A DNA stretch of 64,000 nt, from IMG/VR virus record IMGVR_UViG_3300025889_000070, one strand, 5' to 3'. Position numbers and translations under genes: made by a program. The stretch is from a virus. Lineage: Duplodnaviria; Caudoviricetes. This document shows positions 27,831-64,000 of the stretch, one piece after another (position 1 is the first letter of the stretch; each line of letters starts with the position of its first letter). The notes below the pieces were generated by a model that worked only from the letters and a program-made list of their open reading frames with translations, was not told the DNA's origin and ran no database searches.

Positions 27831-28171
27831 TGTCTCCGGAACAAGCAAAATTTCCCTATAGTGTTGTTGTTAAAAGCGAACATTATACACAACGAGCAAA
27901 TCATCTACCTGTTCAAGGGGGAGCATTAAACGCTGGTTACACCGTCGCGCCGGCGCGACGGCCGGCACCAGTGGATGCCCTTTGTATGATCAGTAATTTA
28001 CTTGGCAAACACGGTCTACAGTACAATGTAGACTGGTGGTGGGAAGGTTTTGGTAGTGGAGATTATAATCCAAACACTGGGCATACTAGTAGGATACAAT
28101 TAAGGTTTAAAAAAGAAGAACACAAATTACTTCTCCATCTTAGCCCAGACATGGATCACAGGTTATGTTAA
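27830..28171 (+). CDS. hypothetical protein
   Basis: 113-aa ORF coupled to its neighbours. Confidence 0.5.
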   Translation: MSPEQAKFPYSVVVKSEHYTQRANHLPVQGGALNAGYTVAPARRPAPVDALCMISNLLGKHGLQYNVDWWWEGFGSGDYNPNTGHTSRIQLRFKKEEHKLLLHLSPDMDHRLC

Positions 28172-28992
28172 CAAATGTATTACTAATAGGTGGTGCTGGA
28201 TTTATAGGCGGGCATCTTAAAAATAAACTAGAGTCTAATGGTACCACTGTTGATGTCATTGACAAAAAACATGGAAAAAATATACTGGACGAATATGCTC
28301 TAGTAGCAGACAGAGAATATAGTCATGTAGTATTTTTAGCAGCAGAAGCAAATCTTAGAGCAGTAAAACGAAATCCTGTTGATGCTATCAAAACAATGAC
28401 TGTAGGTTTAATGAACTGTTTGAAATATTATTCAGACAGTCATTTTACATATATTAGTAGTAGTATGGTTTATGGCAACTGGGCTGGAGACAGTGTAAGT
28501 GAAAATGATGCTCGAGCTCCTATAGACTTGTATGGCCAACTTAAACTGGCTGGAGAAGGCATTGTTAAAGAATTACACAGCAACTATACCATTATAAGGC
28601 CCACGGCAGTTTATGGTCCTGGTGATGATCCTACTAGAGTACTTCCACACTTTATAAACCTAGCAAGACAAAATCAAATACTTACAGTAAAAGGGTCTAA
28701 CAACATGCTAGATTTTACGCATGTTGACGATATTATACAAGGAATTATACTGGGTATGAATAGACCTAAATACAGTACAGGCGTTTACAACATAAGTTAC
28801 GGTAACGCAGTACCCTTAGAAACTGTAGCTAAATACATTACAAAGTGCTTGGGCACCGGATCAGTTAAAGTAGATCCGCTGGACTTAGAATACCCAAAAC
28901 GTGGCAGCATGAATATCACAAAAGCAAGAACTGAACTGGGATACAAGCCTACAACGCACGTATTTGATGGTATAAATGAACTATTATCATAA
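28165..28992 (+). CDS. NAD-dependent epimerase/dehydratase (extended SDR)
   Basis: GGAGFIG, ISSSMVYG, YGQLK (YxxxK), IRPTAVYGP, DFTHVDD. Confidence 0.92.
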   Translation: MLTNVLLIGGAGFIGGHLKNKLESNGTTVDVIDKKHGKNILDEYALVADREYSHVVFLAAEANLRAVKRNPVDAIKTMTVGLMNCLKYYSDSHFTYISSSMVYGNWAGDSVSENDARAPIDLYGQLKLAGEGIVKELHSNYTIIRPTAVYGPGDDPTRVLPHFINLARQNQILTVKGSNNMLDFTHVDDIIQGIILGMNRPKYSTGVYNISYGNAVPLETVAKYITKCLGTGSVKVDPLDLEYPKRGSMNITKARTELGYKPTTHVFDGINELLS

Positions 28993-29001
28993 GGATATTT
29001 A

Positions 29002-30225
29002 ATGTATATTGGTTTTATAGGGTTAGGTAAACTTGGCATGCCCTGTGCTGAAGCAATGGCACAAAAATACGACGTAACAGGATACGATATACAGCCAAAA
29101 ACCAGCAACTTAGTAGACATAGTATCTAACTTAGAGCAAGCAGTTACAAACAAAGACCTAGTATTTGTTGCTATTCAAACACCACATCAGCAGGAATACG
29201 ATGGTAGCCAACCGTGCATGGACCTTGAACCCAAGGACTTTGATTACAGTCAAGTAAAGCAGTGCTTACAAGAAATAAACAAATATGCAAATAAGCACAC
29301 GTTAGTAGTTCTTATTAGCACAGTGTTGCCGGGTACGGTTCGCAGAGAACTAGCACCACTAATCACCCAGGCTCGTTTTATATACAACCCATACCTAATA
29401 GCAATGGGTAGTGTTAGTTGGGACATGATTAATCCAGAAATGGTTATCGTTGGTACAAAAAACGGCAGTTATACAGACGATGCTACATTAATTATTGACT
29501 TTTACAAGGAGTTAATGGAGAACAATCCACGTTATGTTGTAGGAACCTGGGAAGAAGCAGAAAGCATTAAGATTTTTTATAATACATTTATTAGTGCTAA
29601 ACTAAGTCTTGTAAACATGATCCAGGATGTTAGTATGAAATTGGGTAATATGAATGTTGATGTTGTAACGGATGCACTATCAAGAAGCACACAACGTATC
29701 ATGGGTCCACAATATATGAAAGCTGGCATGGGAGATGGCGGTCCTTGTCATCCCAGAGACAATATTGCTCTACGTTTTATGGTACAAGAACTTGGGTTAG
29801 GCTATGACTTGTTTGATGCTATTATGCAAGCCAGAGAAATACAAGCTGAAAACGTTGCTTTTAAACTAGTAGATTTAGCTAATGAATATAATATGCAGAT
29901 TGTCATACACGGTAAAGCATACAAGCCACAAGTTCCATATTTAGAAGGCAGCTATAGTTTGCTAATTGGACACTACTGTAAAAAACTAGGGTTTGATCCT
30001 GTATATGTTGATCCAGAAACCGGTGATGCATTTGAACCTACAGAGCCTTGTGTTTTTTTACTAGCGCACAGCGCCAACACTACTTATAAGTATACTAACA
30101 ATCAACCAGTTGATACTAATACAATGTACTGTTTAGTGCCTGACGGAAGTGTTGTTGTTGACATGTGGAGAAACTATACCAATAACAAGTGTACAGTTAT
30201 TCATTATGGAAATACACGTGACTAA
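29002..30225 (+). CDS. ugd: UDP-glucose/GDP-mannose dehydrogenase family
   Basis: GLGKLG, FVAIQTP, STVLPGT, YNPY, AESIKIFYNTF, GGPCHPRD. Confidence 0.88.
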   Translation: MYIGFIGLGKLGMPCAEAMAQKYDVTGYDIQPKTSNLVDIVSNLEQAVTNKDLVFVAIQTPHQQEYDGSQPCMDLEPKDFDYSQVKQCLQEINKYANKHTLVVLISTVLPGTVRRELAPLITQARFIYNPYLIAMGSVSWDMINPEMVIVGTKNGSYTDDATLIIDFYKELMENNPRYVVGTWEEAESIKIFYNTFISAKLSLVNMIQDVSMKLGNMNVDVVTDALSRSTQRIMGPQYMKAGMGDGGPCHPRDNIALRFMVQELGLGYDLFDAIMQAREIQAENVAFKLVDLANEYNMQIVIHGKAYKPQVPYLEGSYSLLIGHYCKKLGFDPVYVDPETGDAFEPTEPCVFLLAHSANTTYKYTNNQPVDTNTMYCLVPDGSVVVDMWRNYTNNKCTVIHYGNTRD

Positions 30226-43530: not shown

Positions 43531-43886
43531 ATGATGCAAAACGTGCTATGGGCCTGGGGAAAGCAAAAGTAGTAGAAGAGCCAAAACCTAGAGCGCCTAA
43601 AAAAACAGCAAAAGAAATTGCTACAGAAAAGGGAGAGCCCTGGGTAAGTGTGCTCGATATAGAACTGGATCCTGAAAATCCTGGAAACGGTGCTTTTGAA
43701 CTTGACTGGAACGAATATTTTATAAAGCGTCTTTGGAAGGCTGGCTACCGTGACGAAGATGAAAATGACATGGTAGATCGTTGGTTCCAGGATGTTTGTA
43801 GACAGGTAGTTCTTGAAACATATGAAAAAGATGAAGCAATGGTAACCAGAAATGATCTAGGTGATGGAAAGACAGAGTATAGATAA
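43518..43886 (+). CDS. hypothetical protein
   Basis: 122 aa; KGEPWV..GAFELDWN..VDRWF. Confidence 0.65.
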   Translation: MGLLDDAKRAMGLGKAKVVEEPKPRAPKKTAKEIATEKGEPWVSVLDIELDPENPGNGAFELDWNEYFIKRLWKAGYRDEDENDMVDRWFQDVCRQVVLETYEKDEAMVTRNDLGDGKTEYR

Positions 43887-44656
43887 TGTTGCTATACGTA
43901 AATGGTGATAGTCATAGTGCTGGAGCAGAACTTGTTAAAGACTATTGCTTTGCAGAAGACGACAACCGATATCGTCATTATGGCAGAACTCCTCACCCTG
44001 AAGCAATACCAAAAACATTTGGACATCATTTGTCTAAAAAACTTAACGCTGGCTACTTTTTAGACGCTGAGAGTGCAAGTAGTAATGATCGTATCCTCCG
44101 GACAACTCAGTTATTCCTAGGTGAGAAAATACGCAAACCGCGTACAATAGTTATTGGTTGGAGTTCCTGGGAGAGAGAAGAGTTTTGGCATACTGATAGA
44201 TATTATCAGTTTACAGCAAGTGGAACTGATAGTGTTCCTGAAGAATTAGAACTTGATTATAAAATCTGGGTTGCAGAACAAACTAATGATACACTAAGAA
44301 TAAAGCACATATACTGGCACAATAAAATCTGGGATTTTCACCAGGAACTTGTGGAGAAAAACGTTAAACATTTATTCTTTAATGCCATGCAAAATTTTAA
44401 TCCAGGCTGGGTAGAAAGCAAGGACTGGCAGGGAAGTTATATAGAGCCATATGATAATAACTGGGTATACATAAACTGGGCTAAACAACAAGGCTTCCTA
44501 ACAGCAAACTTCTTTGGCAGTCATTATGGCGAGGACGCTCATAAAGCCTGGGCAAGAGAACTTCATACACGGTTGACAGGACCAGTAGAATCTAGTACAA
44601 TAAACACTAGAGTAGTAAATGCAAGAGTAAACCCTTACAAACCGAGGAAGTTGTGA
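43886..44656 (+). CDS. SGNH/GDSL hydrolase-like protein
   Basis: VNGDSHSAG (block I), SASSNDRI, IGWS, C-terminal SHYG..AH. Confidence 0.65.
   Translation: MLLYVNGDSHSAGAELVKDYCFAEDDNRYRHYGRTPHPEAIPKTFGHHLSKKLNAGYFLDAESASSNDRILRTTQLFLGEKIRKPRTIVIGWSSWEREEFWHTDRYYQFTASGTDSVPEELELDYKIWVAEQTNDTLRIKHIYWHNKIWDFHQELVEKNVKHLFFNAMQNFNPGWVESKDWQGSYIEPYDNNWVYINWAKQQGFLTANFFGSHYGEDAHKAWARELHTRLTGPVESSTINTRVVNARVNPYKPRKL
44573..44601 (+). promoter_or_regulatory. sigma70-type promoter TTGACA-N17-TACAAT
   Basis: Inside the 3' end of the SGNH gene, upstream of the exonuclease. Confidence 0.6.
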
Positions 44657-51682: not shown

Positions 51683-52981
51683 ATGACCACTACAACTGCG
51701 AATAAGAAAAACGTAGAAATTCCAGTAGGATTTGAGACAGATCCTCTAGAGGATGCGCTTGCTCGTGAAGCCCTTACTACTGCTAGAGTAGCCCTGCTCC
51801 TTAAAGCCAGCTTCTTCGGCAACATGGCTACTCGCTTGCCGCTTGTAAACGCAGATGCTTGGCTTCCCACAGCGGCTACTGATGGACGCTATTTCTACTA
51901 CAATAGCAAGTTCATCAACATGCTTAAAAAGAAGGAAATTGAGTTCCTGTTTGGGCATGAGGTGCTCCACAATGTGTATGAGCACCTGGGCCGTAGCAAG
52001 CTGAACAAACATAACCCTATGATTGCTAACATTGCGGCAGACTATGCTGTAAACGGTGACCTTGTTAAGAGTCGTATTGGTCAGCTGATTACCACTGTAC
52101 CTGCTCTGCACGATACAAAATACTATGGCATGAGCATGGAAGAGATCTACGACGACATTTATGAAAATGCCGAGAAGATAGATCTAGATCAACTTGCTGA
52201 TATGCTGCTAGATGAGCATCTGGAAAGCGACGATGAGCAGGACGGCAATAGTGGTGCTGGCGGCCCTCAAGAAGACGAGAACGGCAACCTCAAGAGTAAA
52301 AGCAAGCCCAAGTACAGCGAAGAAGAGCGCAAAAAGATTCGTGATGAGATCAAGGAGAGCCTCATCAATGCTGCCAAGCAAAGTTCAGGTGCTGGTGAAA
52401 TTCCTGGTGGTGTACAGCGCATTATCAAGGACTTGACCGAGCCCAAGATGAACTGGCGCGAACTGCTTGCTCAGACTATCGAGAGCAGCATTAAAAGCGA
52501 TTATAGCTTTATGCGTCCTAGCCGCAAGGGCTGGGGTATGGATGTGGTACTTCCTGGCATGGTTGCAGAAAACACTATTGACATTGCGGTTGCTGTGGAC
52601 ATGAGCGGCAGCATCAGCGACCAGCAAGCCCGGGACTTTTTTAGTGAGATTAAAGCTATCATGGATAGCTACACTGACTTTAAGATCAAGCTCTGGTGCT
52701 TTGACACGCAGGTTTATAACTATGCTGAGTTTGATAACACGAACATAGATGATATCCTTGTTTACGAGCCGGCTGGCGGTGGCGGCACTATGTTTGAGTG
52801 TAACTGGGCTTACATGAAGGAAAACGACATACAGCCCAACCGCTTTGTTATGTTTACTGATGGCTATCCTTGCGGTACCTGGGGAGATGAGTTCTACTGC
52901 GATACGGTGTTTATTATTCACGGTCCAGAAACTATCAAGCCATCATTTGGTAATTATGCCTACTACGATGGTAAGAAATAA
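51683..52981 (+). CDS. HExxH metallopeptidase plus vWA domain protein (DUF2201-like), MoxR partner
   Basis: TAATDGR, HEVLH, NIAADYAVN; MIDAS DMSGS; GGGGT..F; FTDGY. Confidence 0.88.
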   Translation: MTTTTANKKNVEIPVGFETDPLEDALAREALTTARVALLLKASFFGNMATRLPLVNADAWLPTAATDGRYFYYNSKFINMLKKKEIEFLFGHEVLHNVYEHLGRSKLNKHNPMIANIAADYAVNGDLVKSRIGQLITTVPALHDTKYYGMSMEEIYDDIYENAEKIDLDQLADMLLDEHLESDDEQDGNSGAGGPQEDENGNLKSKSKPKYSEEERKKIRDEIKESLINAAKQSSGAGEIPGGVQRIIKDLTEPKMNWRELLAQTIESSIKSDYSFMRPSRKGWGMDVVLPGMVAENTIDIAVAVDMSGSISDQQARDFFSEIKAIMDSYTDFKIKLWCFDTQVYNYAEFDNTNIDDILVYEPAGGGGTMFECNWAYMKENDIQPNRFVMFTDGYPCGTWGDEFYCDTVFIIHGPETIKPSFGNYAYYDGKK

Positions 52982-53622
52982 TGAGGTACTGGACAGAGTA
53001 TCAAAATTTCAAGCATGCTCAAATAGTAAAAAAATACCAGCACTCTTATCCTATAAGCAAGGGTAAGATGCCACTTTTTTCCTGGGCTGGTTTTGATGGT
53101 ATAGATACTAGTGTATGGATACCTAAAACCTATTCTGAGTGGTTAACAAATAGAAAAAAAATGAAAGAAAAACATAAGCGAGCACACATGCGGGCAGCCT
53201 TTGCATATGCTGAATGTAGCACTGCGAAGCGTTTGCAAGTGGGTTGTGTTATAGTAAAGGACGATCGCATTATCAGCATCGGCTACAATGGCATGCCCAG
53301 TGGCTGGACAAATGAGTGCGAAGAAGAAGTTGTTGAAGTTCCTGAGTTACAGGCGGCTTTACCTGAAAACGAAATAAGATACTTGGTTACCAAACCAGAA
53401 GTGCTACACGCGGAAATGAATGCTCTTATGAAGTTGGCTCGATCTACTGAGAGTGGCGAGGACGCAACTGCATTTATAACACATCAACCCTGCATGGAAT
53501 GTTCTAAAGGTTTATATCAAGCAGGTATTAAGGAAATATTCTATGTTCATCCATATAGATTAAACGATGGACTAGAGTTTTTAAAAAAATGTGGTATACC
53601 CGTTGAACAAATAAATGTTTGA
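52981..53622 (+). CDS. dCMP deaminase (about 60-aa N-terminal extension, or start at 53161)
   Basis: STAKRLQVGCVIV, IGYNGMPSG, HAEMNA, PCMECSK. Confidence 0.9.
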   Translation: MRYWTEYQNFKHAQIVKKYQHSYPISKGKMPLFSWAGFDGIDTSVWIPKTYSEWLTNRKKMKEKHKRAHMRAAFAYAECSTAKRLQVGCVIVKDDRIISIGYNGMPSGWTNECEEEVVEVPELQAALPENEIRYLVTKPEVLHAEMNALMKLARSTESGEDATAFITHQPCMECSKGLYQAGIKEIFYVHPYRLNDGLEFLKKCGIPVEQINV

Positions 53623-54859
53623 TATCTTTTGTATGCAGATTACAGGTAACAATGTTGACCTACCCGCTAATACACAATACACTCGTTGGAATGGTACACA
53701 CCTAGACACAATACGTAGGTGTGTAAATCATGCTAGAACAGAGTACGTTTGGATTGTAGCAGACTGTTGCAATTATTCTAACTTTGATTTTACCTGGCAA
53801 CCCGTGCCCTGGGAAGCAGATCAGATACACTGCTGGGCAAGCGGTAACCAACAGTTTGGTGATACTTTCCTGGTGCCTGTCAGTGCTTTTAAGAAGCAAG
53901 AGCAAGGGCTTAAACTACTTGAGTGGTATGAGTATATCAACTGGCACAGTGAGCCCAGTGTGCCGCGCTATGAATGGCCCACAGTGACCGATTTAGATGC
54001 TCAGACCAGCTTGTATGCTTGGCACAAGCAAACCAGCGCAGACATTGACTATGAGCCCAGTTTATGGAAAAAACGTGATCTACACGCCTTTACACAGAGC
54101 GGTAGTGTACTACTAGTGCCCAGGGACTGTAAAACGCATTTTAAAGAGCAATACTACGACTACCCACATATCTTGCGCCATACGGACTATAATATACCTG
54201 AAAAACTACTTGATGTAGTATACTTGAGCAACGGTGAAAAAAACGCCCTTAAAAACTGGAATATATTAAAAGAAATTTGCCCTAGGGCAAAATGGGTTGA
54301 GGGGGTAACAGGCAGGGCAGCGGCATATAAAGCCTGCGCTGAGATAAGCGATACACCCTGGTTCTTTAATGTGTTTGCTAAGTGTATTGTAGATCCAGAC
54401 TTTGACTTTAACTGGCAACCAGACTGGTTACAAGGACCCAAGCACTGGATATTTCACAGTCGTAATCCTGTTAATGGGTTGGAATATGGACACATGGGTA
54501 TCATTGCTTACCACAAGCAGATGGTACTTGATGCTACTGAATGGGGGCTAGACTTTACGCTGAGTGCTAGACACGGCGTTGTGCCTGTGGTGGGTAGTAC
54601 AGCAGACTTTAATACTAGTCCATACGAAACTTGGCGTACTGCTTTTAGAGAATGTATCAAACTGTATGGACAATCAGATCCAGAAAGTCGCTACAGGTTA
54701 AATCAATGGTGTACAGTTGGTAAAGGTGACTATGCTGAGTGGAGTATAGAAGGTGCTACTTATGCCACTGTTTATGCTGCTAGCGGAAACGATCTACAAG
54801 CCACCTTTGAATGGAAATTCCTCAAAGAACTCTTTGATAGCAAGTATAACATGGTGTAG
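53615..54859 (+). CDS. glycosyltransferase-like protein (two-part)
   Basis: EYVWIVADCC..FDFTWQP echoed by WFFNVFAKC..FDFNWQP; NPVNGLEYGHMG; WRTAFREC.KL. Confidence 0.5.
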   Translation: MFDIFCMQITGNNVDLPANTQYTRWNGTHLDTIRRCVNHARTEYVWIVADCCNYSNFDFTWQPVPWEADQIHCWASGNQQFGDTFLVPVSAFKKQEQGLKLLEWYEYINWHSEPSVPRYEWPTVTDLDAQTSLYAWHKQTSADIDYEPSLWKKRDLHAFTQSGSVLLVPRDCKTHFKEQYYDYPHILRHTDYNIPEKLLDVVYLSNGEKNALKNWNILKEICPRAKWVEGVTGRAAAYKACAEISDTPWFFNVFAKCIVDPDFDFNWQPDWLQGPKHWIFHSRNPVNGLEYGHMGIIAYHKQMVLDATEWGLDFTLSARHGVVPVVGSTADFNTSPYETWRTAFRECIKLYGQSDPESRYRLNQWCTVGKGDYAEWSIEGATYATVYAASGNDLQATFEWKFLKELFDSKYNMV

Positions 54860-55786
54860 TTCATGATCTGTCATATAAGGATCACAGGGAAGAGCTAGTT
54901 GGCATAAACAGTTTTCTGTGGCTTGTGGTGATTTATAAATTGGTTGTTCGTAAACACGTTTAATTTGTATTTCACGCTTTATCATCCACATTTCTAGTTC
55001 TACTCTAAGCGGAGTGCTTATCACAAACTTGCTTACTTGACCACGTGGATCAGTTACGCAGGTAACTAGATGTCTAATTTGTTGATAATAGTCTCTGGCA
55101 ATCTCTTGTCTGCGTTCTTGCCAAATTGGAAAGTGATCCAGCTTTACTAGAAGTTCAGCACATTCACGTTCACTGGGTATACTATTGCCGCCTATTTCCA
55201 AACCATGTCGTCTTAGGGATCGTAAATTACCAGCAATAGTATCTGAGTTTGTTACGACTGCGCCGGCGTTTCCAAAGTTAGGTAAACTTTTTGTAGGATC
55301 AAAACTATAACTAGCAAAAATGCCCTGTAGTGGAGCACCAAAATGTTGAGCTCCATCTTCATATATTTTTTTATTTTCTGGTAAGTGTTGATAATTATTT
55401 CCAAACAAGCCTACCCAAATAACATGATCTATACCACTGGGTATTTTATTCCAATCCAGTAAACCAGTATCTGTTACATCAACCGGCACTGGAATATTAT
55501 TACTCCTATTAATACTGTTTTTTGTTGCTATAAAGGTTTGTGCTGGAAATGCAATTAAAGATTTAGATAAGCCACTGGCTACTAGACCATAATATAACGC
55601 ATCACTGCCACTACCAAGCATTACACAGTGCTTTGCTTGACTTAGTTTGGCAATTCTATTTTCTAGTTCTTTTGTACAGTTTCCTAGCAGATGCCTTCCT
55701 GATTGATAAACCTGTTCAGTTGCTAGGTCTAGGCTTTGTTTTAATTCAGCATACAATCTATCTAGATTGTGGAGGTGGATTGTCAT
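54794..55786 (-). CDS. DegT/DnrJ/EryC1 PLP-dependent aminotransferase
   Basis: SGSDAL, TFIAT, PVDV, EDGAQHFG, SFDPTKSLPNFGNAG. Confidence 0.88.
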   Translation of the reverse strand: MTIHLHNLDRLYAELKQSLDLATEQVYQSGRHLLGNCTKELENRIAKLSQAKHCVMLGSGSDALYYGLVASGLSKSLIAFPAQTFIATKNSINRSNNIPVPVDVTDTGLLDWNKIPSGIDHVIWVGLFGNNYQHLPENKKIYEDGAQHFGAPLQGIFASYSFDPTKSLPNFGNAGAVVTNSDTIAGNLRSLRRHGLEIGGNSIPSERECAELLVKLDHFPIWQERRQEIARDYYQQIRHLVTCVTDPRGQVSKFVISTPLRVELEMWMIKREIQIKRVYEQPIYKSPQATENCLCQLALPCDPYMTDHELHHVILAIKEFFEEFPFKGGL

Positions 55787-55992: not shown

Positions 55993-56289
55993 TTATTCCC
56001 TATGCTGCTTATTATACCATTTTAAAGTCCAGAGCGCCAGTTCGTTAGGATCCTCAAAGCTCATTACCGCTTGGTTCTCATCAGGCGTAAACCACCAACC
56101 CCATTTACTTTGGCAATTTTCTATAGCCCACTCTATACTAGGATACATAACACCATTTGTATTTAAAAAACAGTTGTAGTCAAACTTTTTATTGTATCCA
56201 CAATCAGGGTTTTTATCTTTAATCATTGGGTCTAGTTTTTGCCATTCATAATAAGTAAACCCTTGTTTGTTTATCCTAGGTAGTCCCAT
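55993..56289 (-). CDS. hypothetical protein
   Basis: MGLPRINKQG..IEWAIENCQSKWGWWF..FEDPNELALW.L.W. Confidence 0.55.
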   Translation of the reverse strand: MGLPRINKQGFTYYEWQKLDPMIKDKNPDCGYNKKFDYNCFLNTNGVMYPSIEWAIENCQSKWGWWFTPDENQAVMSFEDPNELALWTLKWYNKQHRE

Positions 56290-56968
56290 CCCATTCAAAC
56301 ATTTCGTCCGCAAGTGGGAACACATCTGCAATTACTCGTGCACACGCATGAGCAATCTCCATGTGTTCCTTTTGAGTACCATTAGCACCACGTAGTTCAA
56401 TATAGTGTACCCAACTACGTAGCGTACCGTTCATATACATGCGACTTACTGTATTACCCTCAGGCAATACAGCCCTAGCTTGTTCTTTAGCAATACCGTT
56501 CTCAATAGCCCACTGATATGCCTTTTTTGATGCATCAATTACAAATTGTTGAGCAGCAGTCCACTGATGTTCTAGTTCTTCGTCATTTACATCAATACTG
56601 TTCTGCCTGTTTGTAGTGTCCTGCAAACGTGCTTCACGAGTAACAAACTCTAGATCCTTTGTGGGATCAGCGTAGCGTTGGCTAAACTCTTGGAAACTGA
56701 AACTCCTGTGACGCAGGATCTGCCTTGCTATGTCACGAGTAGTTTCAATCTCCATACAAGCACTGACCATTTCTAGGGGACTCCAATGCTTGTGTTTGAT
56801 GAGATATTTAATGAGCTTTGCGCTAGTTTCCATGTTTAACTGTCCACTAGGGTTGCTGACTCTAGCACAGAACGCAATAAGGTCCTGCACGTCTGCATCA
56901 ACAAGATCATGAGCAGTTAAAAACTCTGGACTGGCTTGGCTATAGCTAACCAGGCTTACTTTCATCAA
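56276..56968 (-). CDS. thyX: flavin-dependent thymidylate synthase
   Basis: HWSPLE, RQILRHRSFSFQEFSQRY, EQARAVLP, LRSWVHYIELR, Q.EH..IA. Confidence 0.96.
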   Translation of the reverse strand: MMKVSLVSYSQASPEFLTAHDLVDADVQDLIAFCARVSNPSGQLNMETSAKLIKYLIKHKHWSPLEMVSACMEIETTRDIARQILRHRSFSFQEFSQRYADPTKDLEFVTREARLQDTTNRQNSIDVNDEELEHQWTAAQQFVIDASKKAYQWAIENGIAKEQARAVLPEGNTVSRMYMNGTLRSWVHYIELRGANGTQKEHMEIAHACARVIADVFPLADEMFEWDGTT

Positions 56969-58005: not shown

Positions 58006-58548
58006 ATGATTTCCAAATACTTTTTTATAATTTTAACAATTTTTTTATTAACTACTAAGCCTCTTTTTTCTCAAGAAATTAATTCAGGGGAAATGATTGT
58101 TAATAATATTTTTACCTTGTTTGAAGCAAGTCTTCAATGTCAGGCAGTAGCAGAAATCACTGCCAATTACTACATTATTTACCTAGGATTCAAACACAGT
58201 TTAGAAAAATCTGATATTAAAAAGTTAGAAACGCCAAAAAGTATAAGTTACCTCAAAACACAATTTACAAAATATGAAGAGTTAATACAAGAAATAAAAA
58301 AGTTATTAACTCGCTTAGACAGTACTACGGCAAACAAAATAAAAAATTATGAACAAAGTACATACATAAAAATAAAACAACAACTACTATATTTTTTATT
58401 GAACAGAATAGAGCCAGATTTTATAGAAAATACTATGGCCTTGAACAGTGAATGTTATCAAAAATTTAAATTTCGCCAAGATTATTTAAAGACAATATCT
58501 GCAGATATTGACAGGCATATACAAGAAAATCCTAGCTTAAAACCTTAA
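58006..58548 (+). CDS. AT-rich secreted or membrane-anchored hypothetical protein
   Basis: Only + strand gene in the minus block; signal-like N-terminus MISKYFFIILTIFLL. Confidence 0.55.
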   Translation: MISKYFFIILTIFLLTTKPLFSQEINSGEMIVNNIFTLFEASLQCQAVAEITANYYIIYLGFKHSLEKSDIKKLETPKSISYLKTQFTKYEELIQEIKKLLTRLDSTTANKIKNYEQSTYIKIKQQLLYFLLNRIEPDFIENTMALNSECYQKFKFRQDYLKTISADIDRHIQENPSLKP

Positions 58549-60013
58549 CACCATAATGCTTTTCAAACCTATCTGCGTCCGCTCTAGTATTAATCATGGG
58601 CTCGCCACGGATATTTAGACTAGTGTTTAACAGCATTGGACAGTCAGTTAGCACATACCATTTTTCTAGAAGTTCCCTTACGCCAGAATGATCGTTTCTA
58701 CCAACCGTTTGTACTCTACTGGTTGAGTCTACATGAAGTATAGCAGGAAAGCCAAGCCTTGTACACCCGTAGACGCTCTGCATATATGGATTTGTTTCCC
58801 AGGGCGGCATAGCAAAATAATCGCTGGCATGTTCATTTAGAATCATGGGAGCAAAAGGTCTAAACTTTTGTCTGCGTTTTATTTCATTTACACGGTCTTT
58901 GATATCAGCACCTCTCGGATCTGCTAGCAAACTTCTAGTGCCCAGTGCTCTTGGTCCAAACTCCGCTCTGCCACTGGCCACTCCCACTATTTTGTTTTCC
59001 ATTAGTTCACTGATAATTTCATCAACTGGATATTCACCTGGTATATTGGTACCCAGATATGGTCCTTGCCAGTTTAAGCGTTTACCATAGGCTAATGCGG
59101 CTGCTCCTAGACTGCTACCACAATCTCCTGGATTGGGCATTATCCAAAACCTGTTCCATATCTCACTTATTTTAGCATTTGCTACACAGTTTAAGGCAAC
59201 GCCGCCCATGTATACACAATCATCTATATCAGTATAAGTTTCAGCAAGTTGACGCATTAAGGTAGTTAAACAGCGTTCAGTTACAAGTTGTGCGCTTAAT
59301 GCCAAACTTTCTGGGTCAATATCTGGCAACATGGATTTAGGTATACCAGTATGACAGTTATACTTCCAGGTTTGATTGTGATCAGCATCTACAAAGGTAT
59401 TATAAACGTCTTTGTACCAATTTGGCATGCCATAAGCACTCATACCCATTAAGATATATTCTTCTTCCATGGGTTTAAGACCAACTGCTTGTGTCATAGC
59501 ACTGTAAAATAATCCTAGACTGTTTGGGTATCTGCGTTTTAGAACGGATTTATACACCGCATTGCCATGGTTATCATAACTGGCAATATAGGCACTGTAG
59601 GTATCCCATTCTCCAATAGCATCTACTACCACAACCATGGCTCTATCAAACGGTGATGTTTGAAACCCTGCGGCAGCATGACTCAAATGATGACTATATG
59701 TGGTTATTGGTTTGTTTATGCCAACGTCTGCTAGATGACGTTTAGGAGATTTATCAGTAAGTGCTTTGCGCCATTCTCCGCTGTAGAGTTGTCGTGTCTT
59801 TTTAAGCCAGGGTCGCTCATACCAAGCAACTTGACTTATATCACCATAACTCAAGGCTTCATCTATTATTTCTTGGTTAAGTTCTGGGTCATTTTTAACA
59901 CGACTATATCGTTCGCTGTGAGCAGCAAATAGAATATCACCGTGATTGTTGATTACACTCACACCAGCATCATGAAAGCCGGCACTCACACCCAGTATAT
60001 TTGGTAGTTTCAT
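58532..60013 (-). CDS. carbamoyltransferase (NodU/CmcH family)
   Basis: GFHDAG, HSERYSR.KND, HHLSHAA, DAIGE, GGVALNC, PGDCGSSLGAA, EFGPRALG.RS, LLNTSLN. Confidence 0.93.
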   Translation of the reverse strand: MKLPNILGVSAGFHDAGVSVINNHGDILFAAHSERYSRVKNDPELNQEIIDEALSYGDISQVAWYERPWLKKTRQLYSGEWRKALTDKSPKRHLADVGINKPITTYSHHLSHAAAGFQTSPFDRAMVVVVDAIGEWDTYSAYIASYDNHGNAVYKSVLKRRYPNSLGLFYSAMTQAVGLKPMEEEYILMGMSAYGMPNWYKDVYNTFVDADHNQTWKYNCHTGIPKSMLPDIDPESLALSAQLVTERCLTTLMRQLAETYTDIDDCVYMGGVALNCVANAKISEIWNRFWIMPNPGDCGSSLGAAALAYGKRLNWQGPYLGTNIPGEYPVDEIISELMENKIVGVASGRAEFGPRALGTRSLLADPRGADIKDRVNEIKRRQKFRPFAPMILNEHASDYFAMPPWETNPYMQSVYGCTRLGFPAILHVDSTSRVQTVGRNDHSGVRELLEKWYVLTDCPMLLNTSLNIRGEPMINTRADADRFEKHYGVKVLS

Positions 60014-60111
60014 TTATATATAAAAGGGTCTCTACGTCTCAACTCTTTTAATCTTTTTCTATACTGTATTTCCAGTTTAATACGGTTTATAATATTTTTA
60101 ATCCACTGCAT
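60010..60111 (-). CDS. 33-aa basic peptide (MQWIKNIINRIKLEIQYRKRLKELRRRDPFIYK)
   Basis: Read by hand; bridges the radical SAM and carbamoyltransferase genes with overlaps on both sides. Confidence 0.6.
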   Translation of the reverse strand: MQWIKNIINRIKLEIQYRKRLKELRRRDPFIYK

Positions 60112-61381
60112 CTGGTATATCCTTCCACCATTTGATAAGAGCAGGATCGCGTAACGTGTCTATAAACCTTGTCCCTTTTCTACCTGTATCCAGACTTTCC
60201 ATTCGTTGTTTGGCCCTACATCTGGCCTCGAGATATACTTCCGACGGATATTCTTCTTCAAACGTTTTACGTTTTAGTAGGTTTATTAACACGTCACGCA
60301 TCGCACCTTTTGTATTAGGAACTATACTATTAATTATCTGTTCTAAAATATGACGCGGAAGAAATAATGGACTCATTGCTATATCAGGCGTAAACGCAAA
60401 ACAAACCTTTGCTAATATTTCTACGTCCAGTTCGTCTGCTAATTTAGTAATTTCTGGTACTTGAAATAAGCCTGGCGTGGTTAATGTAAAGTCTATACGC
60501 ATCATGCGTTTGTTTTTAGCATATGCTAAACCTTGTTTAAAATTTTCTAACCACTCATCGTATTTCAATCCAGTTCGTATATACTCTCCTATCTTACCAA
60601 CACCATCCAAACTGGCACATATTTGCCAATCTCTAATTTTATCTAATATATCAGTATACAAGTTTACACCCTGATAATCTACACGACTTAAATTTGTATT
60701 GTATCTAGCATACAAACCAGGACCATCGCCTAGTTCAATAATCCGTTGCATGTACCGCCAATGCTGTTCATACATCAGTGGCTCGCCGCCTACCCAGTAT
60801 ATTTCTTCTATGCGATGTTCTTCAACTGCCCGGGCAAACTCTGCTTCTATTTGTGTGTCTTGATAGTTGCTAATTTGTTTTTTTACACTGGGTTCCATCC
60901 AGGGTTCTATTTTGCCCTGTTTGCGAGCCTCTGTTTCCCAACTGCTGGATAGCATAGGTCCACACATACGACATTTAAAGTTACATAGGTTGCTGAAACG
61001 ATAGTCCCAACTCACAGGTTGCATGGTTGTATAGCCAGTGGCATCGGTGGTTTCTGCTATTTGCTTATATTTGTGTTTGAATAAATGCCAAAAATAATCA
61101 CGATAAACGTCTGTGTTAAGTAACTTCTTGTCGCATACTTCGCACTCAGGTGGCAGTTCTCCGGCCATCATTTGACGGCGCACACGGCGTATATGCTCAC
61201 CATTCCACCACTCATCTAAGGTTTGCGGTTTATACTCATTTGTGCCATCTGCGGTGTCTATATATTGACGAAAGTTCTGTGCTGGCTCTCTACTAGCACA
61301 ACACAGTCTACGCTCTGTCTGTGGACTAAGATAGGTATGTAAAAAAGGTGCAAGGCATAAATTATCAGGCTTATCTTTCAT
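60098..61381 (-). CDS. radical SAM protein with N-terminal twitch/SPASM-like Cys motif
   Basis: CLAPF..RLCC..CEVC; CNFKCRMC; GGEPL; YNTN. Confidence 0.9.
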   Translation of the reverse strand: MKDKPDNLCLAPFLHTYLSPQTERRLCCASREPAQNFRQYIDTADGTNEYKPQTLDEWWNGEHIRRVRRQMMAGELPPECEVCDKKLLNTDVYRDYFWHLFKHKYKQIAETTDATGYTTMQPVSWDYRFSNLCNFKCRMCGPMLSSSWETEARKQGKIEPWMEPSVKKQISNYQDTQIEAEFARAVEEHRIEEIYWVGGEPLMYEQHWRYMQRIIELGDGPGLYARYNTNLSRVDYQGVNLYTDILDKIRDWQICASLDGVGKIGEYIRTGLKYDEWLENFKQGLAYAKNKRMMRIDFTLTTPGLFQVPEITKLADELDVEILAKVCFAFTPDIAMSPLFLPRHILEQIINSIVPNTKGAMRDVLINLLKRKTFEEEYPSEVYLEARCRAKQRMESLDTGRKGTRFIDTLRDPALIKWWKDIPDAVD

Positions 61382-62543
61382 AACCTATTACTCTGGCAAA
61401 TTTTTCATGTGTAGTAGCAAAGTTTTTATCCCTAAAGTCATCTTTTTCTTTTAACCGTTTTTTTAGTTTTTCGCCATCGTTTTCATCACTACGTTGGCTA
61501 ACTATAAACTTAATGCTGCGGATCTTTTCTTCATAATCAGGGTGCTGAACTATACACTTATCTAAAGCCAGCATAACCGGAGCCTTGGCAGTCTTTGGTA
61601 GATTATACAAACTAAACTCTTCCGGATCATGCATTAGATTATAGTGTACGTCAGTGATAGGTTGTTTCTTTACCCAGGTTAAGAAGTCAGCCATGTACAT
61701 AACGTTTTGCACGTTCCAGGTTACACAAATTTGAAACTCAAAAGGATATCCTTGGTCTCGTAGTTCATAAAATTTTTCTATATTACGGTTTACTGTTGCC
61801 CATTTAGCACCATCGCGCTCATATTCAAAACGCTCGCCCACATTGTCTATGCTAAAAGCGATCTGTACACGTTTAAACTTTTTCCATACTTCATGCTGTT
61901 TTGGAAACTGTGTTCCGTTTGTATTGTAGTGTATGTCAATATCACCAGCATAACCACCATCCACTGCTCGCTGTAGCAAATCAAAATGCTGTTTAATCAG
62001 GAATGGTTCGCCACCAGTGAACTCAAAATACTTAATGTCGGGTAATAGTTCATCTACGTGTTCCCAGAATTTTTTACTGCTTCTAGGCCAGCGTCCCTGA
62101 CTTAACCACTGCTTGGCTATGTGCTTTTCGCCAAATTGTGCTAGGTCTTCCTGCGCCCAGGCGCTGCTACTCCAACTGCCACAAATTCTACATTTTAGAT
62201 TACAGATATTGCCTAGTTTTAAGTCTAAAAATCTTAGCGTATCTCCACGGGTGTCTTCGTAGTTTACTTCTATGTCTTTAAACTTTTCCAGCATGTACTG
62301 TCGTTTACTTTTTTTGCCAGCATCTTCTTCTTTAAAACATTTGGCACACTGACCAGGTTGGCGATTTTTCATAAATGCTTCACGCAACTCTGTCATGTAT
62401 TCACCTTGTAAAACTTCTGTTAGGGTGTGTGTTTTTACATTAACAAATGGTATTTCTCTGTCAAATAAACAGCAGGGCCTAAGGTTTCCCAGTGGCGTTG
62501 TCTCTAAACTAATCCATGGTAGTATACATCTATTATCTGTCAT
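61371..62543 (-). CDS. radical SAM protein with N-terminal twitch/SPASM-like Cys motif
   Basis: CILPW..RPCC..CAKC; CNLKCRIC; TGGEPF; YNTNG. Confidence 0.9.
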   Translation of the reverse strand: MTDNRCILPWISLETTPLGNLRPCCLFDREIPFVNVKTHTLTEVLQGEYMTELREAFMKNRQPGQCAKCFKEEDAGKKSKRQYMLEKFKDIEVNYEDTRGDTLRFLDLKLGNICNLKCRICGSWSSSAWAQEDLAQFGEKHIAKQWLSQGRWPRSSKKFWEHVDELLPDIKYFEFTGGEPFLIKQHFDLLQRAVDGGYAGDIDIHYNTNGTQFPKQHEVWKKFKRVQIAFSIDNVGERFEYERDGAKWATVNRNIEKFYELRDQGYPFEFQICVTWNVQNVMYMADFLTWVKKQPITDVHYNLMHDPEEFSLYNLPKTAKAPVMLALDKCIVQHPDYEEKIRSIKFIVSQRSDENDGEKLKKRLKEKDDFRDKNFATTHEKFARVIGYER

Positions 62544-63849
62544 AGTCTTGTAATCTCTCTAATTCAGGGAATACACTAAAGAAATTTTCGTTGCGCCAAC
62601 GATCAAGTTCCTTAGCCCGCACTACAAACTCTGGTATGTGTTTGCTGTTATCTGAATTGCTCATAAAGTTAATAGCACTTTTGAATCCTTGTGTAGCACG
62701 ACTTAGTGGATCCTGTGGTTCCAACCAAGTAATATGATTTTGGTATAGTTCAACAAGTTCCTGTTTCATGTCTTCAGGTAATACATCTAATCTAAATCTA
62801 ATAGGATCTTGTAATATATTTACATTCCAATCCTGTGGCTTTACTAATCCTAGCTCTACCCACTCCTTGTGGAAGTCTACAATGTTGTAACTGTTCATTA
62901 GACTAAGTGTTGAACTTACATAAAAGTCTACAGTAGGACACTTCTCTAGCATACGTTCTCTGTTTGCTACAATCTTACTCCACACCGTGCCTTTACGTAT
63001 GAGCTCACCACGTTCATAGTTTGCGTCCAAACTTGCACCAATGCTTACAATGTCAAACTCATTCCACATGTCCAACACATCCTGCTGTTTGAATACTAGC
63101 TCTGTAAAGTTTGTATTGTAGTTCAGTCTAACGTCTGTGCGTCCTCTGCGTAGTAGCTCACGAAGTAAATTGTAATGCTCTACCATCATAAGTGGTTCAC
63201 CGCCCGCAAAGTAAATGTTTTCTATACTGTCAATGTGAGGCTCTAACTGTTCCCACATGTCCATTTCATAACGTCCTGCATACTGTACATTTGGATGGTT
63301 AGGTTTTAGCCAACTCATCTTCTTTGCTTCTTTTACCCAGTTACTACTAAAGATATCTCCGCATGTACGGCACGCAAGGTTACATAAATTACTAAAGCGA
63401 ATATCATAGTACTTGAGTTCAAAACGTTCTAGTGTACCATCTTCCAGTGTCTCATCTACAATACCAATGTGATGTCCTTCGTTTTTGTTCTGTGCATTGC
63501 GCATACTGAAGAACCCGTTCTTTTCCTGTTCATAACATTTTGTGCATTCTTTACAAGGCTTGTCTGCTAGCATGTTACGACGCATTTCACGCAAGGATTC
63601 GTCATTCCATACTTCAGCCATTGTTTGTTCACGTAGGTTACCAATAGGATGTTCCATAACACTTAAACAACAAGGATAAGCACGGCCGTCTGGAAATGCA
63701 TGCATGTGTATCCAGGGCAAAATACAAAATGTATCGCTATATATTAATCTATTGGTTTGCTGATCGTTTAAGTCCTGCAAATTTACGTAAACAGGATTAC
63801 GTGCACCATAGTCATAATTTTCATAATAATTTTTTAATTTGTCTGTCAT
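62533..63849 (-). CDS. radical SAM protein with N-terminal twitch/SPASM-like Cys motif
   Basis: CILPW..YPCC..CTKC; CNLACRTC; AGGEPL; YNTN. Confidence 0.9.
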   Translation of the reverse strand: MTDKLKNYYENYDYGARNPVYVNLQDLNDQQTNRLIYSDTFCILPWIHMHAFPDGRAYPCCLSVMEHPIGNLREQTMAEVWNDESLREMRRNMLADKPCKECTKCYEQEKNGFFSMRNAQNKNEGHHIGIVDETLEDGTLERFELKYYDIRFSNLCNLACRTCGDIFSSNWVKEAKKMSWLKPNHPNVQYAGRYEMDMWEQLEPHIDSIENIYFAGGEPLMMVEHYNLLRELLRRGRTDVRLNYNTNFTELVFKQQDVLDMWNEFDIVSIGASLDANYERGELIRKGTVWSKIVANRERMLEKCPTVDFYVSSTLSLMNSYNIVDFHKEWVELGLVKPQDWNVNILQDPIRFRLDVLPEDMKQELVELYQNHITWLEPQDPLSRATQGFKSAINFMSNSDNSKHIPEFVVRAKELDRWRNENFFSVFPELERLQDYDR

Positions 63850-64000
63850 AGGCTGTTATACCATTCAACTAATTCTGGGAAGGTTTCTGTAAAGTTTTTA
63901 TTCCTACGCACATCATATTGACTATAAAACTGTTTAAAGTCATTGTGCAGTTTTGGCATTTCAAACGCTTCGTCGTGCGGTGTGTTAACAACTTTCAAAT
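63846..64000 (-). CDS. C-terminal fragment of a probable fourth radical SAM protein (start outside the window)
   Basis: ...FYSQYDVRRNKNFTETFPELVEWYNSL* matches the D.RR..NF...FPEL ending of the 62533 paralog; ATGA overlap. Confidence 0.6.
   Translation of the reverse strand, partial: LKVVNTPHDEAFEMPKLHNDFKQFYSQYDVRRNKNFTETFPELVEWYNSL

What the first reader, a model, noticed from the sequence alone, without database searches (positions are those of the whole stretch)
58532..64000. Array of at least 4 twitch-type radical SAM paralogues, a 33-aa peptide and a carbamoyltransferase in one coupled operon
Seen: tandem paralogues sharing an N-terminal C..PW/F..CC..CxxC cluster ahead of CxxxCxxC, all overlapping their neighbours, then a basic peptide ending RRRDPFIYK and a NodU/CmcH carbamoyltransferase. 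Known: SPASM/twitch radical SAM enzymes often modify peptides or sugars, and NodU/CmcH enzymes O-carbamoylate sugars or hydroxymethyl groups, including phage DNA bases. Inference: an uncharacterised multi-step tailoring pathway, either RiPP-like with the peptide as substrate or scaffold, or building a complex carbamoylated glycan or base. With QueE and the 24-kb pair, this window holds about seven radical SAM genes.
Basis: partly seen in the sequence, partly recalled or inferred. Interest (0 to 1): 0.72.

Follow-up and report, generated by a model that had tools for sequence, protein, structure and literature searches.

The report
Phage radical-SAM array with carbamoyltransferase micro-protein
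An uncultured jumbo phage carries part of a widespread but never-studied operon of paralogous iron-sulfur "radical SAM" enzymes plus a carbamoyl-adding enzyme, and the tiny tyrosine-tailed peptide between them goes with the carbamoyl enzyme rather than being raw material for the radical enzymes.

Summary
On the minus strand lie three complete radical SAM genes with an N-terminal twitch domain, all matching NCBIfam NF033640. A 50-codon C-terminal stub of a fourth sits at the window edge. A 33-codon ORF ending ...RRRDPFIYK and a NodU/CmcH/TobZ-type O-carbamoyltransferase (CT) follow. Every gene overlaps its neighbour by 4-14 nt.

The cassette recurs in hundreds of IMG/VR viral contigs. There it has five anciently diverged radical SAM orthogroups in fixed order. 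It usually sits among sugar-nucleotide genes and GT-A-like transferases.

The peptide is a real gene: DPFIY is invariant while its codons vary freely, and the family has 468 clusters. It tracks the CT, not the radical SAMs. In 63 of 63 phage loci found through a radical SAM gene that also hold a CT, the peptide is present. In 20 CT loci the peptide occurs with no radical SAM nearby, including true bacterial genomes.

My best reading is a sugar or glycan tailoring pathway. The peptide is probably a partner of the CT, possibly a tyrosine carbamoyl carrier like DltX/PatA. A RiPP reading is disfavoured. No product is known.

This scan reported the same cassette earlier on other DNA. New here are the bacterial occurrences, the co-occurrence counts and an unannotated copy in the cultured Ralstonia phage RsoM2USA.

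The parts
63846..63998 (-). C-terminal 50 codons of a fourth N-terminal-twitch radical SAM gene (orthogroup R2). The gene runs off the window end.
   Evidence: The stub is 74-78% identical to the exact C-termini of R2 orthologues in L003, L004, L013 and others (E 1e-23 to 1e-25). It overlaps the rSAM-A start by 4 nt.
62533..63849 (-). rSAM-A (438 aa), orthogroup R4 of the N_Twi radical SAM family
   Evidence: NF033640 at 391.5 bits against a cutoff of 170. Pfam SPASM matches residues 42-105 and Radical_SAM matches 151-311. It is 61% identical to L003 R4 and about 28% to its own neighbours.
61371..62543 (-). rSAM-B (390 aa), orthogroup R5
   Evidence: NF033640 at 339.9 bits. The AF2 model has pLDDT 95.3, with a twitch domain at about residues 1-90 followed by the radical SAM barrel. 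The best solved matches are tied: BlsE Z 12.7, anSME 12.6, SkfB 12.2, CteB 11.9 and viperin 11.9.
60098..61381 (-). rSAM-C (427 aa), orthogroup R6
   Evidence: NF033640 at 294.2 bits. It is 85% identical to L003 R6.
60010..60111 (-). 33-aa basic micro-protein: an amphipathic helix followed by an invariant DPFIY(K) tail
   Evidence: The start overlaps the rSAM-C end by 14 nt and follows an AAGGA. The stop overlaps the CT ATG. The peptide is found in 61 of 82 CT-centred loci (80 IMG/VR contigs plus two phage-database records), always on the CT strand. DPFIY is invariant in 39 aligned sequences. Differences at codon positions 1, 2 and 3 are 0.25, 0.15 and 0.54, and all Pro and Ile codons are used. 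A profile search finds 468 clusters at E<=1e-3.
58532..60013 (-). NodU/CmcH/TobZ-family O-carbamoyltransferase (493 aa)
   Evidence: Pfam Carbam_trans_N at 4e-32 and Carbam_trans_C at 2e-49. PDB relatives are an unnamed 'Carbamoyltransferase' chain (7xb6), a novobiocin carbamoyltransferase (9s2t), GdmN and TobZ, from 1e-45 to 1e-29. H108, H109 and H112 are invariant in 39 homologues.
54794..55786 (-). DegT/DnrJ/EryC1-type sugar aminotransferase, a cassette companion in relatives
   Evidence: Pfam PF01041 at 1.6e-34. The same family (fam 4) lies beside the CT in 44 related loci.
53615..54859 (+). Two-domain GT-A-like, putative glycosyltransferase (family 'fam 2'), which flanks the cassette in relatives
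   Evidence: It has no Pfam hit. The AF2 model has pLDDT 93.4. All significant Foldseek matches (E<=0.001) are GT-A-fold glycosyltransferases or sugar-nucleotidyltransferases, including Mimivirus R699 and chondroitin polymerase K4CP. VIA gives Z 8-9.7 over residues 196-333. The family is present in 45 related loci, often twice.

Best explanation
The region is the 3' part of a conserved jumbo-phage operon. It encodes several anciently diverged N-terminal-twitch radical SAM enzymes. Each has a SAM-cleaving [4Fe-4S] cluster and a four-cysteine auxiliary cluster. Behind them come a 33-residue tyrosine-tailed micro-protein and an ATP- and carbamoyl-phosphate-dependent O-carbamoyltransferase (CT).

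Shown here: the array is linked to the peptide-plus-CT module in phages. The peptide-plus-CT pair is a self-standing two-gene module that also occurs without radical SAMs in phages and in true bacteria.

Inferred: each radical SAM paralogue carries out a distinct radical step, such as oxidation, epimerisation, dehydration or C-C chemistry, on a sugar nucleotide or glycan. That substrate would be made and transferred by the neighbouring aminotransferase, epimerase/dehydratase and GT-A-like enzymes. The CT would add a carbamoyl group late in the pathway.

Inferred, and less certain: the micro-protein docks its free DPFIY tail into the CT and may carry the carbamoyl group as O-carbamoyl-tyrosine to the final acceptor or to an SGNH-type transferase. 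This would be analogous to the FxYxxF tyrosine acyl shuttle of DltX and PatA. The target could be a virion protein, a host envelope polymer or DNA; it is unknown.
For: 1. Family and architecture of the enzymes are established.

2. The paralogues are old and positionally conserved. Orthologues across phages are 45-85% identical, while neighbours within one phage are about 28% identical. Five orthogroups (R1, R2, R4, R5, R6) appear in fixed order.

3. The array is linked to the peptide-plus-CT module in phages.
- 49 of 59 non-redundant CT-centred viral loci have radical SAMs.
- 44 of 49 R5-centred loci with a full flank have the peptide and CT downstream on the same strand.
- More than 528 R5 relatives exist in IMG/VR.

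4. The peptide is a translated gene.
- The motif is invariant at the amino-acid level while its codons vary synonymously.
- Its profile finds 468 clusters, nearly all 30-70 aa with the match at the C-terminus.

5. The peptide follows the CT.
- CT was never seen without the peptide in the radical-SAM-centred sample (63 of 63).
- The peptide occurs without any radical SAM in 20 loci.
- It is present just upstream of the CT in Edaphobacter modestus, Reyranella, Amycolatopsis, Actinomadura mexicana, Geodermatophilus and Streptomyces lancefieldiae.

6. A DUF5989 micro-protein (Pfam E 3e-17) ending SPFIYVLV sits beside a more distant CT in an archaeal MAG. SxtK, a 54-aa protein, is proposed to act with the CT SxtI (PMC2679770).

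7. The FxY tyrosine acyl shuttle is established for DltX and PatA, and the PatA motif reads FIYANF (PMC12148441).

8. The context is sugar chemistry.
- Epimerase/dehydratase, DegT, PIG-L and GFO genes sit in relatives.
- DegT and a GT-A-like protein lie in the window.
- An epimerase homologue at 28144-28989 and a UDP-glucose dehydrogenase at 29002-30225 also lie in the window.
Against: - No product, substrate or binding is shown.
- Structure comparison does not separate sugar-acting from peptide-acting radical SAMs. BlsE, anSME, SkfB, CteB and viperin are tied, and the best sequence match of the core is a RiPP maturase, 8vpo.
- The peptide lacks the second half of the FxYxxF motif and has no membrane helix.
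- The peptide does not match the DUF5989 model.
- The SGNH-like gene that precedes the peptide in many relatives is absent from this operon and from the closest relatives L003 and L004. Pfam does not call that gene SGNH.
- Bacterial neighbourhoods of the peptide-CT pair are heterogeneous.
- In this window the sugar genes are several kb to 30 kb away from the operon, not inside it.
Confidence: 0.55

Rival explanations
1. This is a RiPP-like system. The 33-aa peptide is the precursor or scaffold. The radical SAM paralogues modify it, and the CT O-carbamoylates it, for example on Tyr32. The modified peptide or a fragment of it is the product.
For: - The peptide is translationally coupled between the last radical SAM and the CT.
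- SPASM/twitch radical SAMs often mature peptides, and the top sequence and fold matches include TigE/8vpo, CteB, SkfB, SuiB and anSME.
- The peptide and the array co-occur in 50 CT-centred loci and in 44 of 49 array-centred loci.
- The first half-reaction, CT acting on Tyr-OH, is the same as in the carrier model, so 'peptide as CT substrate' is not excluded.
Against: - The peptide occurs with the CT but with no radical SAM within about 10 kb in 20 loci, including cultured bacteria.
- Six loci have the array and CT but no peptide.
- No RRE/PqqD-like recognition domain was found. The N-terminus is the twitch domain.
- The peptide has no Cys, Ser or Thr-rich core. Only DPFIY is invariant, and the residue after Tyr is K, D or absent.
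- Five conserved, distinct radical SAMs would be a lot of chemistry for a five-residue core.
Confidence: 0.13
2. The cassette hypermodifies phage DNA. The enzymes build a carbamoylated sugar or side chain on a modified base.
For: - Nucleotide-metabolism genes lie nearby: ThyX-like at 56276-56968, which I read from the sequence and the gene family (fam 30) but did not scan, and a dCMP deaminase at 52981-53622.
- Phages are known to glycosylate modified bases (general knowledge, not tested here).
- The nearest solved relatives include nucleotide-acting radical SAMs: viperin, MoaA, BlsE and QueE.
Against: - A thymidylate synthase plus a dCMP deaminase point to ordinary dTMP supply rather than replacement of a base.
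- No base hydroxymethylase, DpdA-type transglycosylase or DNA glycosyltransferase was identified in or beside the cassette in the window or in relatives. This search was not exhaustive.
- The peptide-CT module occurs in ordinary bacteria in non-DNA contexts.
Confidence: 0.1
3. The small ORF is only a translational-coupling or regulatory upstream ORF for the CT, and its peptide product has no function.
For: The ATGA overlap with the CT start and the overlap with the rSAM-C end fit coupling.
Against: - The amino-acid sequence is conserved under synonymous codon turnover.
- In more than 30 loci the ORF lies 0.4-2 kb upstream of the CT with other genes in between, yet it keeps its sequence.
- The family spans phages, Acidobacteria, Proteobacteria and Actinomycetes.
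Confidence: 0.03

Closest known systems
NCBIfam NF033640, N_Twi_rSAM (twitch domain-containing radical SAM protein)
   Same: All three complete genes match the model end to end above its cutoff. They share the permuted architecture, with the auxiliary-cluster cysteines N-terminal to CxxxCxxC.
   Different: The family is only catalogued. I found no paper naming it and no characterised member. Here it forms a fixed array of five or six diverged orthogroups in phages.
Twitch/SPASM radical SAM enzymes with solved structures: BtrN, BlsE, DesII, MoaA, anSME, SkfB, CteB
   Same: They share the radical SAM partial TIM barrel and a cysteine-ligated auxiliary [4Fe-4S] domain. The N-terminal 11-83 of the family profile aligns to the C-terminal twitch domain of BtrN.
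   Different: The auxiliary domain here is N-terminal, not C-terminal. The best structural Z is only about 12.7 at 14-21% identity, and sugar-acting and peptide-acting enzymes are tied. No substrate class can be transferred.
TobZ / GdmN / NovN / NodU / CmcH O-carbamoyltransferases
   Same: Both Pfam domains (Kae1-like N, YrdC-like C) are present, along with the invariant HHxxH-type histidines and homology over residues 12-480.
   Different: It is shorter, at 493 aa against 576-702 aa. It scores 129 bits against the NodU equivalog cutoff of 1000, so it is not NodU itself. This clade is defined by an accompanying DPFIY micro-protein.
DltX and the PatA C-terminus: the FxYxxF tyrosine acyl-shuttle motif (PMC12148441)
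   Same: All have a very small protein or tail with an invariant F-I/x-Y close to a free C-terminus, encoded with a group-transfer enzyme. In many relatives an SGNH-like protein is directly adjacent.
   Different: The phage peptide has no membrane helix and no MBOAT partner. The motif ends after Tyr plus 0 or 1 residue. The group would be carbamoyl rather than acyl. No SGNH gene is in this operon. Carrier function is untested.
DUF5989 (PF19451), which I recall as the SxtK type, beside carbamoyltransferases
   Same: It is a micro-protein encoded next to a NodU/CmcH-type CT. It has a basic N-terminal part and a PFIY motif near the C-terminus (L140). SxtK is proposed to act with SxtI (PMC2679770).
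   Different: The phage peptide does not match the DUF5989 model even at E<=10 and lacks its hydrophobic helix. That SxtK belongs to DUF5989 is my recollection and was not tested.

Membership tests
NF033640 N_Twi_rSAM | Full-length match to the family model above the curated cutoff of 170 bits | tested here: met
   391.5, 339.9 and 294.2 bits, covering model positions 1-2 to 392-396 of 398.
NF033640 N_Twi_rSAM | CxxxCxxC radical SAM cluster motif and GGE SAM-binding motif | tested here: met
   C114, C118, C121 and G177-G178-E179 are invariant in 90 sequences. The motifs are visible in all three translations.
NF033640 N_Twi_rSAM | Twitch (half-SPASM) auxiliary-cluster cysteines placed N-terminal to the core | tested here: met
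   Pfam SPASM matches residues 42-105 (A) and 6-69 (B). C6, C66 and C69 are invariant and C25 is at least 90% conserved. The profile aligns to the BtrN twitch domain. Cluster binding itself is not testable here.
NodU/CmcH/TobZ O-carbamoyltransferase | Carbam_trans_N and Carbam_trans_C domains above the gathering scores | tested here: met
   112.4 bits against 24 and 167.9 bits against 27.
NodU/CmcH/TobZ O-carbamoyltransferase | Conserved metal-binding histidines of the Kae1-like domain | tested here: inconclusive
   H108, H109 and H112 are invariant in 39 homologues. I did not align them residue by residue to the TobZ ligands.
NodU (equivalog NF041651) | Score above the equivalog cutoff of 1000 bits | tested here: not met
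   129.4 bits. It is a family member but not NodU itself.
RiPP cluster (radical SAM maturase plus precursor peptide) | The precursor co-occurs obligatorily with its maturase | tested here: not met
   20 CT loci have the peptide but no radical SAM, and 6 have radical SAMs but no peptide.
RiPP cluster (radical SAM maturase plus precursor peptide) | A peptide-recognition (RRE/PqqD-like) domain in or beside the maturase | tested here: inconclusive
   Pfam and NCBIfam report no such domain, and the N-terminus is the twitch domain. RRE-independent maturases exist, so absence is not decisive.
DltX/PatA tyrosine acyl shuttle | FxYxxF hexapeptide near a free C-terminus | tested here: not met
   F-I-Y is invariant, but it is followed by K, D or nothing, and no second Phe is present. 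Only the first half of the motif is there.
DltX/PatA tyrosine acyl shuttle | Membrane helix and MBOAT donor enzyme | tested here: not met
   The peptide is a basic amphipathic helix with no hydrophobic segment. The donor would be a soluble CT. No MBOAT was seen in the cassette families I scanned.
DltX/PatA tyrosine acyl shuttle | SGNH acceptor transferase encoded alongside | tested here: inconclusive
   An SGNH-like signature (GxSF...GN...HPL) appears in the gene preceding the peptide in many relatives. A weak GDSL hit precedes it in Edaphobacter. Pfam does not confirm the signature. No homologue lies in this operon. A distant SGNH-like ORF lies 14 kb away at 43886-44656.
DltX/PatA tyrosine acyl shuttle | Covalent acyl-tyrosine or carbamoyl-tyrosine intermediate | not testable with these tools
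   This needs mass spectrometry of the peptide after reaction with the CT.
DUF5989 (PF19451) | Match to the Pfam model | tested here: not met
   No hit at E<=10 for the window peptide or for three relatives. The positive control L140 scores 3e-17.

The most novel reading that the evidence does not exclude
The DPFIY micro-protein is a soluble covalent carbamoyl carrier. The ATP-dependent carbamoyltransferase loads carbamate onto its penultimate tyrosine, and the O-carbamoyl-tyrosine tail then hands it to the final acceptor. This would extend the tyrosine acyl-shuttle principle of DltX/PatA to carbamoyl chemistry, to the cytoplasm and to phages. Meanwhile the five conserved N-terminal-twitch radical SAMs would perform undescribed radical chemistry on a phage-made glycan.
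Probability: 0.22. Interest if true: 0.85.

Novelty: new variant of a known kind. Interest (0 to 1): 0.6.

Why it matters
Hundreds of large environmental phages, and at least one cultured jumbo phage, devote 6-20 kb to this cassette. Yet no member of its radical SAM family and no member of its micro-protein family has a known reaction. Working it out would assign chemistry to a catalogued but blank radical SAM family. It would also show what large phages decorate, whether virion, host surface or DNA. And it would test whether carbamoyltransferases use a tyrosine-tailed carrier peptide, which would bear on bacterial pathways including SxtI/J/K-type carbamoylation. The 33-codon gene is missed by standard annotation, as in RsoM2USA, so its family is effectively invisible in databases.

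Tried and rejected
- No whole genome is held, so the part of the operon beyond base 64000 could not be read.
- Megablast of the region against phage records found nothing.
- Pfam at E<=10 gave the peptide only a chance PriX hit (0.039) and no DUF5989 hit.
- Foldseek and VIA searches with a high-confidence rSAM-B model could not tell sugar-acting from peptide-acting relatives.
- The mixed 90-sequence radical SAM alignment was too diverse for a locus search. An R5-only alignment worked.
- Pfam did not confirm the SGNH-like reading of the gene family that precedes the peptide in relatives. hhalign of that family against the window ORF 43886-44656 was weak, at probability 18%.
- Bacterial neighbourhoods of the peptide-CT pair gave no common theme. 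They held a GDSL-like gene, a transposase, an amylase, an MFS transporter, a second CT and a 2-hydroxyacid dehydrogenase.
- Literature searches for NF033640, for DUF5989 and for the gene combination in phages found no description.
- I rejected the idea that the array arose by recent tandem duplication. Paralogues are about 28% identical, while orthologues are 45-85% identical.

Full report
**What is there**

The block 58532-64000 is one minus-strand gene string.
- It starts with a 50-codon stub at 63998-63846.
- Next come three complete radical SAM genes at 63849-62533, 62543-61371 and 61381-60098.
- A 33-codon ORF follows at 60111-60010.
- A 493-aa carbamoyltransferase (CT) at 60013-58532 ends the string.

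Successive genes overlap by 4, 11, 11, 14 and 4 nt. The peptide ATG follows an AAGGA, and its TGA overlaps the CT ATG. Consensus promoter-like and terminator-like sites inside the block are no more frequent than in shuffles. A single coupled transcription unit is therefore plausible but not shown.

**The radical SAM genes**

All three match NCBIfam NF033640 (N_Twi_rSAM) over its full length, with 391, 340 and 294 bits against a cutoff of 170. Pfam places the SPASM/twitch segment at the N-terminus, ahead of the Radical_SAM core.

In a 90-sequence alignment of the family from related loci, several residues are invariant:
- the auxiliary cysteines C6, C66 and C69, with C25 conserved in at least 90% of sequences;
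- the CxxxCxxC triad;
- the GGE motif.

The stub at the window edge is the exact C-terminus of another member. It is 74-78% identical over all 50 residues to one orthogroup in eleven related contigs (E down to 3e-25). 'At least four' therefore means three complete genes plus one truncated by the window.

**The cassette elsewhere**

No whole genome is held, and no phage record is similar at the DNA level. The DNA polymerase is 43-49% identical to those of Phosso, Atu_ph07 and Rak2-like jumbo phages.

A search of IMG/VR with the CT gave at least 194 relatives. Of the 80 fetched loci, most have three to six tandem N_Twi genes directly upstream.

Assigning each gene to the six genes of the closest contig (L003) shows five recurring orthogroups in conserved order. 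Orthologues are 45-85% identical, while neighbours within one phage are about 28% identical. The window holds R2 (partial), R4, R5 and R6.

This is an old set of distinct enzymes, not a recent amplification.

A reciprocal search with R5 found more than 528 relatives. Of 49 loci with full flanks, 44 carry the peptide and CT downstream on the same strand.

**Context**

Clustering all ORFs of the loci and scanning representatives shows these genes around the array:
- an NAD-dependent epimerase/dehydratase;
- a DegT aminotransferase;
- a PIG-L deacetylase;
- a GFO/IDH/MocA oxidoreductase;
- a family with no Pfam match that often occurs twice.

The window's copy of that last family (53615-54859) folds with pLDDT 93. 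It matches only GT-A glycosyltransferases and nucleotidyltransferases. The whole-chain hits are tandem GT-A proteins such as Mimivirus R699 and chondroitin polymerase.

The window also has DegT at 54794-55786, an epimerase homologue at 28144-28989 and a UDP-glucose dehydrogenase at 29002-30225.

This points to sugar chemistry. In this window, however, those genes lie outside the operon.

**The peptide is a gene**

A strict tail pattern found 62 hits across 83 sequences. These were the 80 IMG/VR loci, two phage-database records and the whole window, read in all six frames. Every hit is on the CT strand and lies 0-2 kb upstream of the CT.

In 39 distinct sequences D-P-F-I-Y is invariant, and the preceding 20 residues form a basic helix.

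Over the last 20 codons, pairwise differences at codon positions 1, 2 and 3 are 0.25, 0.15 and 0.54. All four Pro codons, all three Ile codons and both Asp and Phe codons are used in the motif. This is selection on the protein.

A profile search of 1.84 billion representatives found 468 clusters at E<=1e-3. Nearly all are 30-70 aa with the match ending at the C-terminus. The few longer ones are a tandem double or look like read-through artefacts.

**The peptide belongs to the CT**

I counted 97 non-redundant CT loci with at least 6 kb of upstream sequence.

| Peptide | Radical SAM | Loci |
|---|---|---|
| present | present | 50 |
| present | absent | 20 |
| absent | present | 6 |
| absent | absent | 21 |

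The peptide lies just upstream of about 48-50%-identical CTs in true bacterial genomes. Examples are Edaphobacter modestus DSM 18101, Reyranella, Amycolatopsis, Actinomadura mexicana, Geodermatophilus amargosae and Streptomyces lancefieldiae. Their tails vary: DPFIY, DPHLYK, DPFMYK.

In the radical-SAM-centred sample, all 63 loci that hold a CT also hold the peptide.

The cultured Ralstonia jumbo phage RsoM2USA has an unannotated copy. It lies in the gap between two hypothetical genes, upstream of its 46%-identical CT and next to one N_Twi gene.

**What the peptide may do**

An archaeal CT locus carries a Pfam DUF5989 micro-protein ending SPFIYVLV. This is a membrane-helix version with the same PFIY motif.

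The saxitoxin literature proposes that the CT SxtI acts with the small proteins SxtJ and SxtK (PMC2679770). That SxtK is a DUF5989 protein is my recollection and was not tested.

Earlier notes of this scan pointed me to the tyrosine acyl shuttle. I checked the paper. DltX and the PatA C-terminus carry acyl groups on the Tyr of an FxYxxF motif (FIYANF in one PatA) and pass them to an SGNH transferase (PMC12148441).

The phage peptide shares only F-I-Y and the free C-terminus. It has no membrane helix and no second Phe.

In many relatives the gene just before the peptide has an SGNH-like signature, though Pfam does not confirm it. This operon has no such gene. A distant SGNH-like ORF (GDSHS, SSND; DUF6071 at 3e-5) lies at 43886-44656.

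A carbamoyl-tyrosine carrier is therefore an attractive but untested idea. A plain docking subunit or a CT substrate are equally open.

**What the radical SAMs may do**

The rSAM-B model is confident, at pLDDT 95.3. Its best solved neighbours are tied: BlsE Z 12.7, anSME 12.6, SkfB 12.2, CteB 11.9 and viperin 11.9, at 14-21% identity. The best sequence match of the core is a RiPP cyclopropyl synthase (8vpo).

Structure therefore gives no substrate class.

Four conserved cysteines suggest a fully ligated auxiliary cluster. This is typical of redox-assisting twitch enzymes such as BtrN (general knowledge, and an inference here).

A glycan or sugar-nucleotide substrate is inferred from context only.

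**Verdict**

The 'tailoring pathway' reading is supported, its glycan branch is favoured, and its RiPP branch is disfavoured.

The same cassette was reported by this scan from several other phage genomes. This window adds a truncated instance.

New here:
- quantitative co-occurrence counts in both directions;
- the orthogroup structure of the array;
- an unannotated copy of the peptide in a cultured phage that could serve as an experimental system.

Noticed in passing
window 43886-44656 (+): A 256-aa ORF with classical SGNH block I (GDSHS) and block III (SSND) motifs. It has a sub-threshold Pfam DUF6071 hit (3e-5) and weak profile similarity to the SGNH-like gene that precedes the DPFIY peptide in related phages. 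It could be the missing transferase partner.
   Followed up: partly
window 23993-24835 and 24832-25719 (+): Two overlapping small radical SAM genes of 280 and 295 aa. Both match Pfam Radical_SAM at about 1e-7. They are unrelated to the N_Twi array and their function is unknown.
   Followed up: partly
window 58006-58548 (+): A 180-aa ORF convergent with the CT, overlapping its 3' end by 17 nt. It has an N-terminal signal-peptide or membrane-anchor-like segment and no Pfam hit. A homologue sits at the same place in the closest contig, L003.
   Followed up: no
window 5272-9852 (+): A 1526-aa protein whose N-terminal ~200 residues resemble a cytidylyltransferase (phrog_395). An internal segment matches giant phage proteins (phrog_10691). 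It is another sugar-activation-like gene in this window.
   Followed up: no
L001 (Ralstonia phage RsoM2USA, MG752970.1), locus 8014-8136: An unannotated micro-ORF of about 37 codons ending RKQDPFIYK. It lies in the gap between RsoM2USA_201 and RsoM2USA_200, just upstream of the phage's carbamoyltransferase RsoM2USA_199.
   Followed up: partly
L140 7537-7719 (-), archaeal MAG contig CAZTJN010000001.1: A DUF5989 micro-protein ending SPFIYVLV, divergent from a 579-aa carbamoyltransferase. A second small membrane ORF lies between them. This is a membrane version of the PFIY micro-protein and CT pairing.
   Followed up: partly
several 'genome contigs' MAG loci, e.g. L090 (NZHE01000012.1), L088, L091: Contigs binned as bacterial MAGs carry the phage cassette. 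L090 has the same length (46,940 bp) as IMG/VR contig 2823573081_000015 (L049). They are probably phage contigs mis-binned into MAGs.
   Followed up: no
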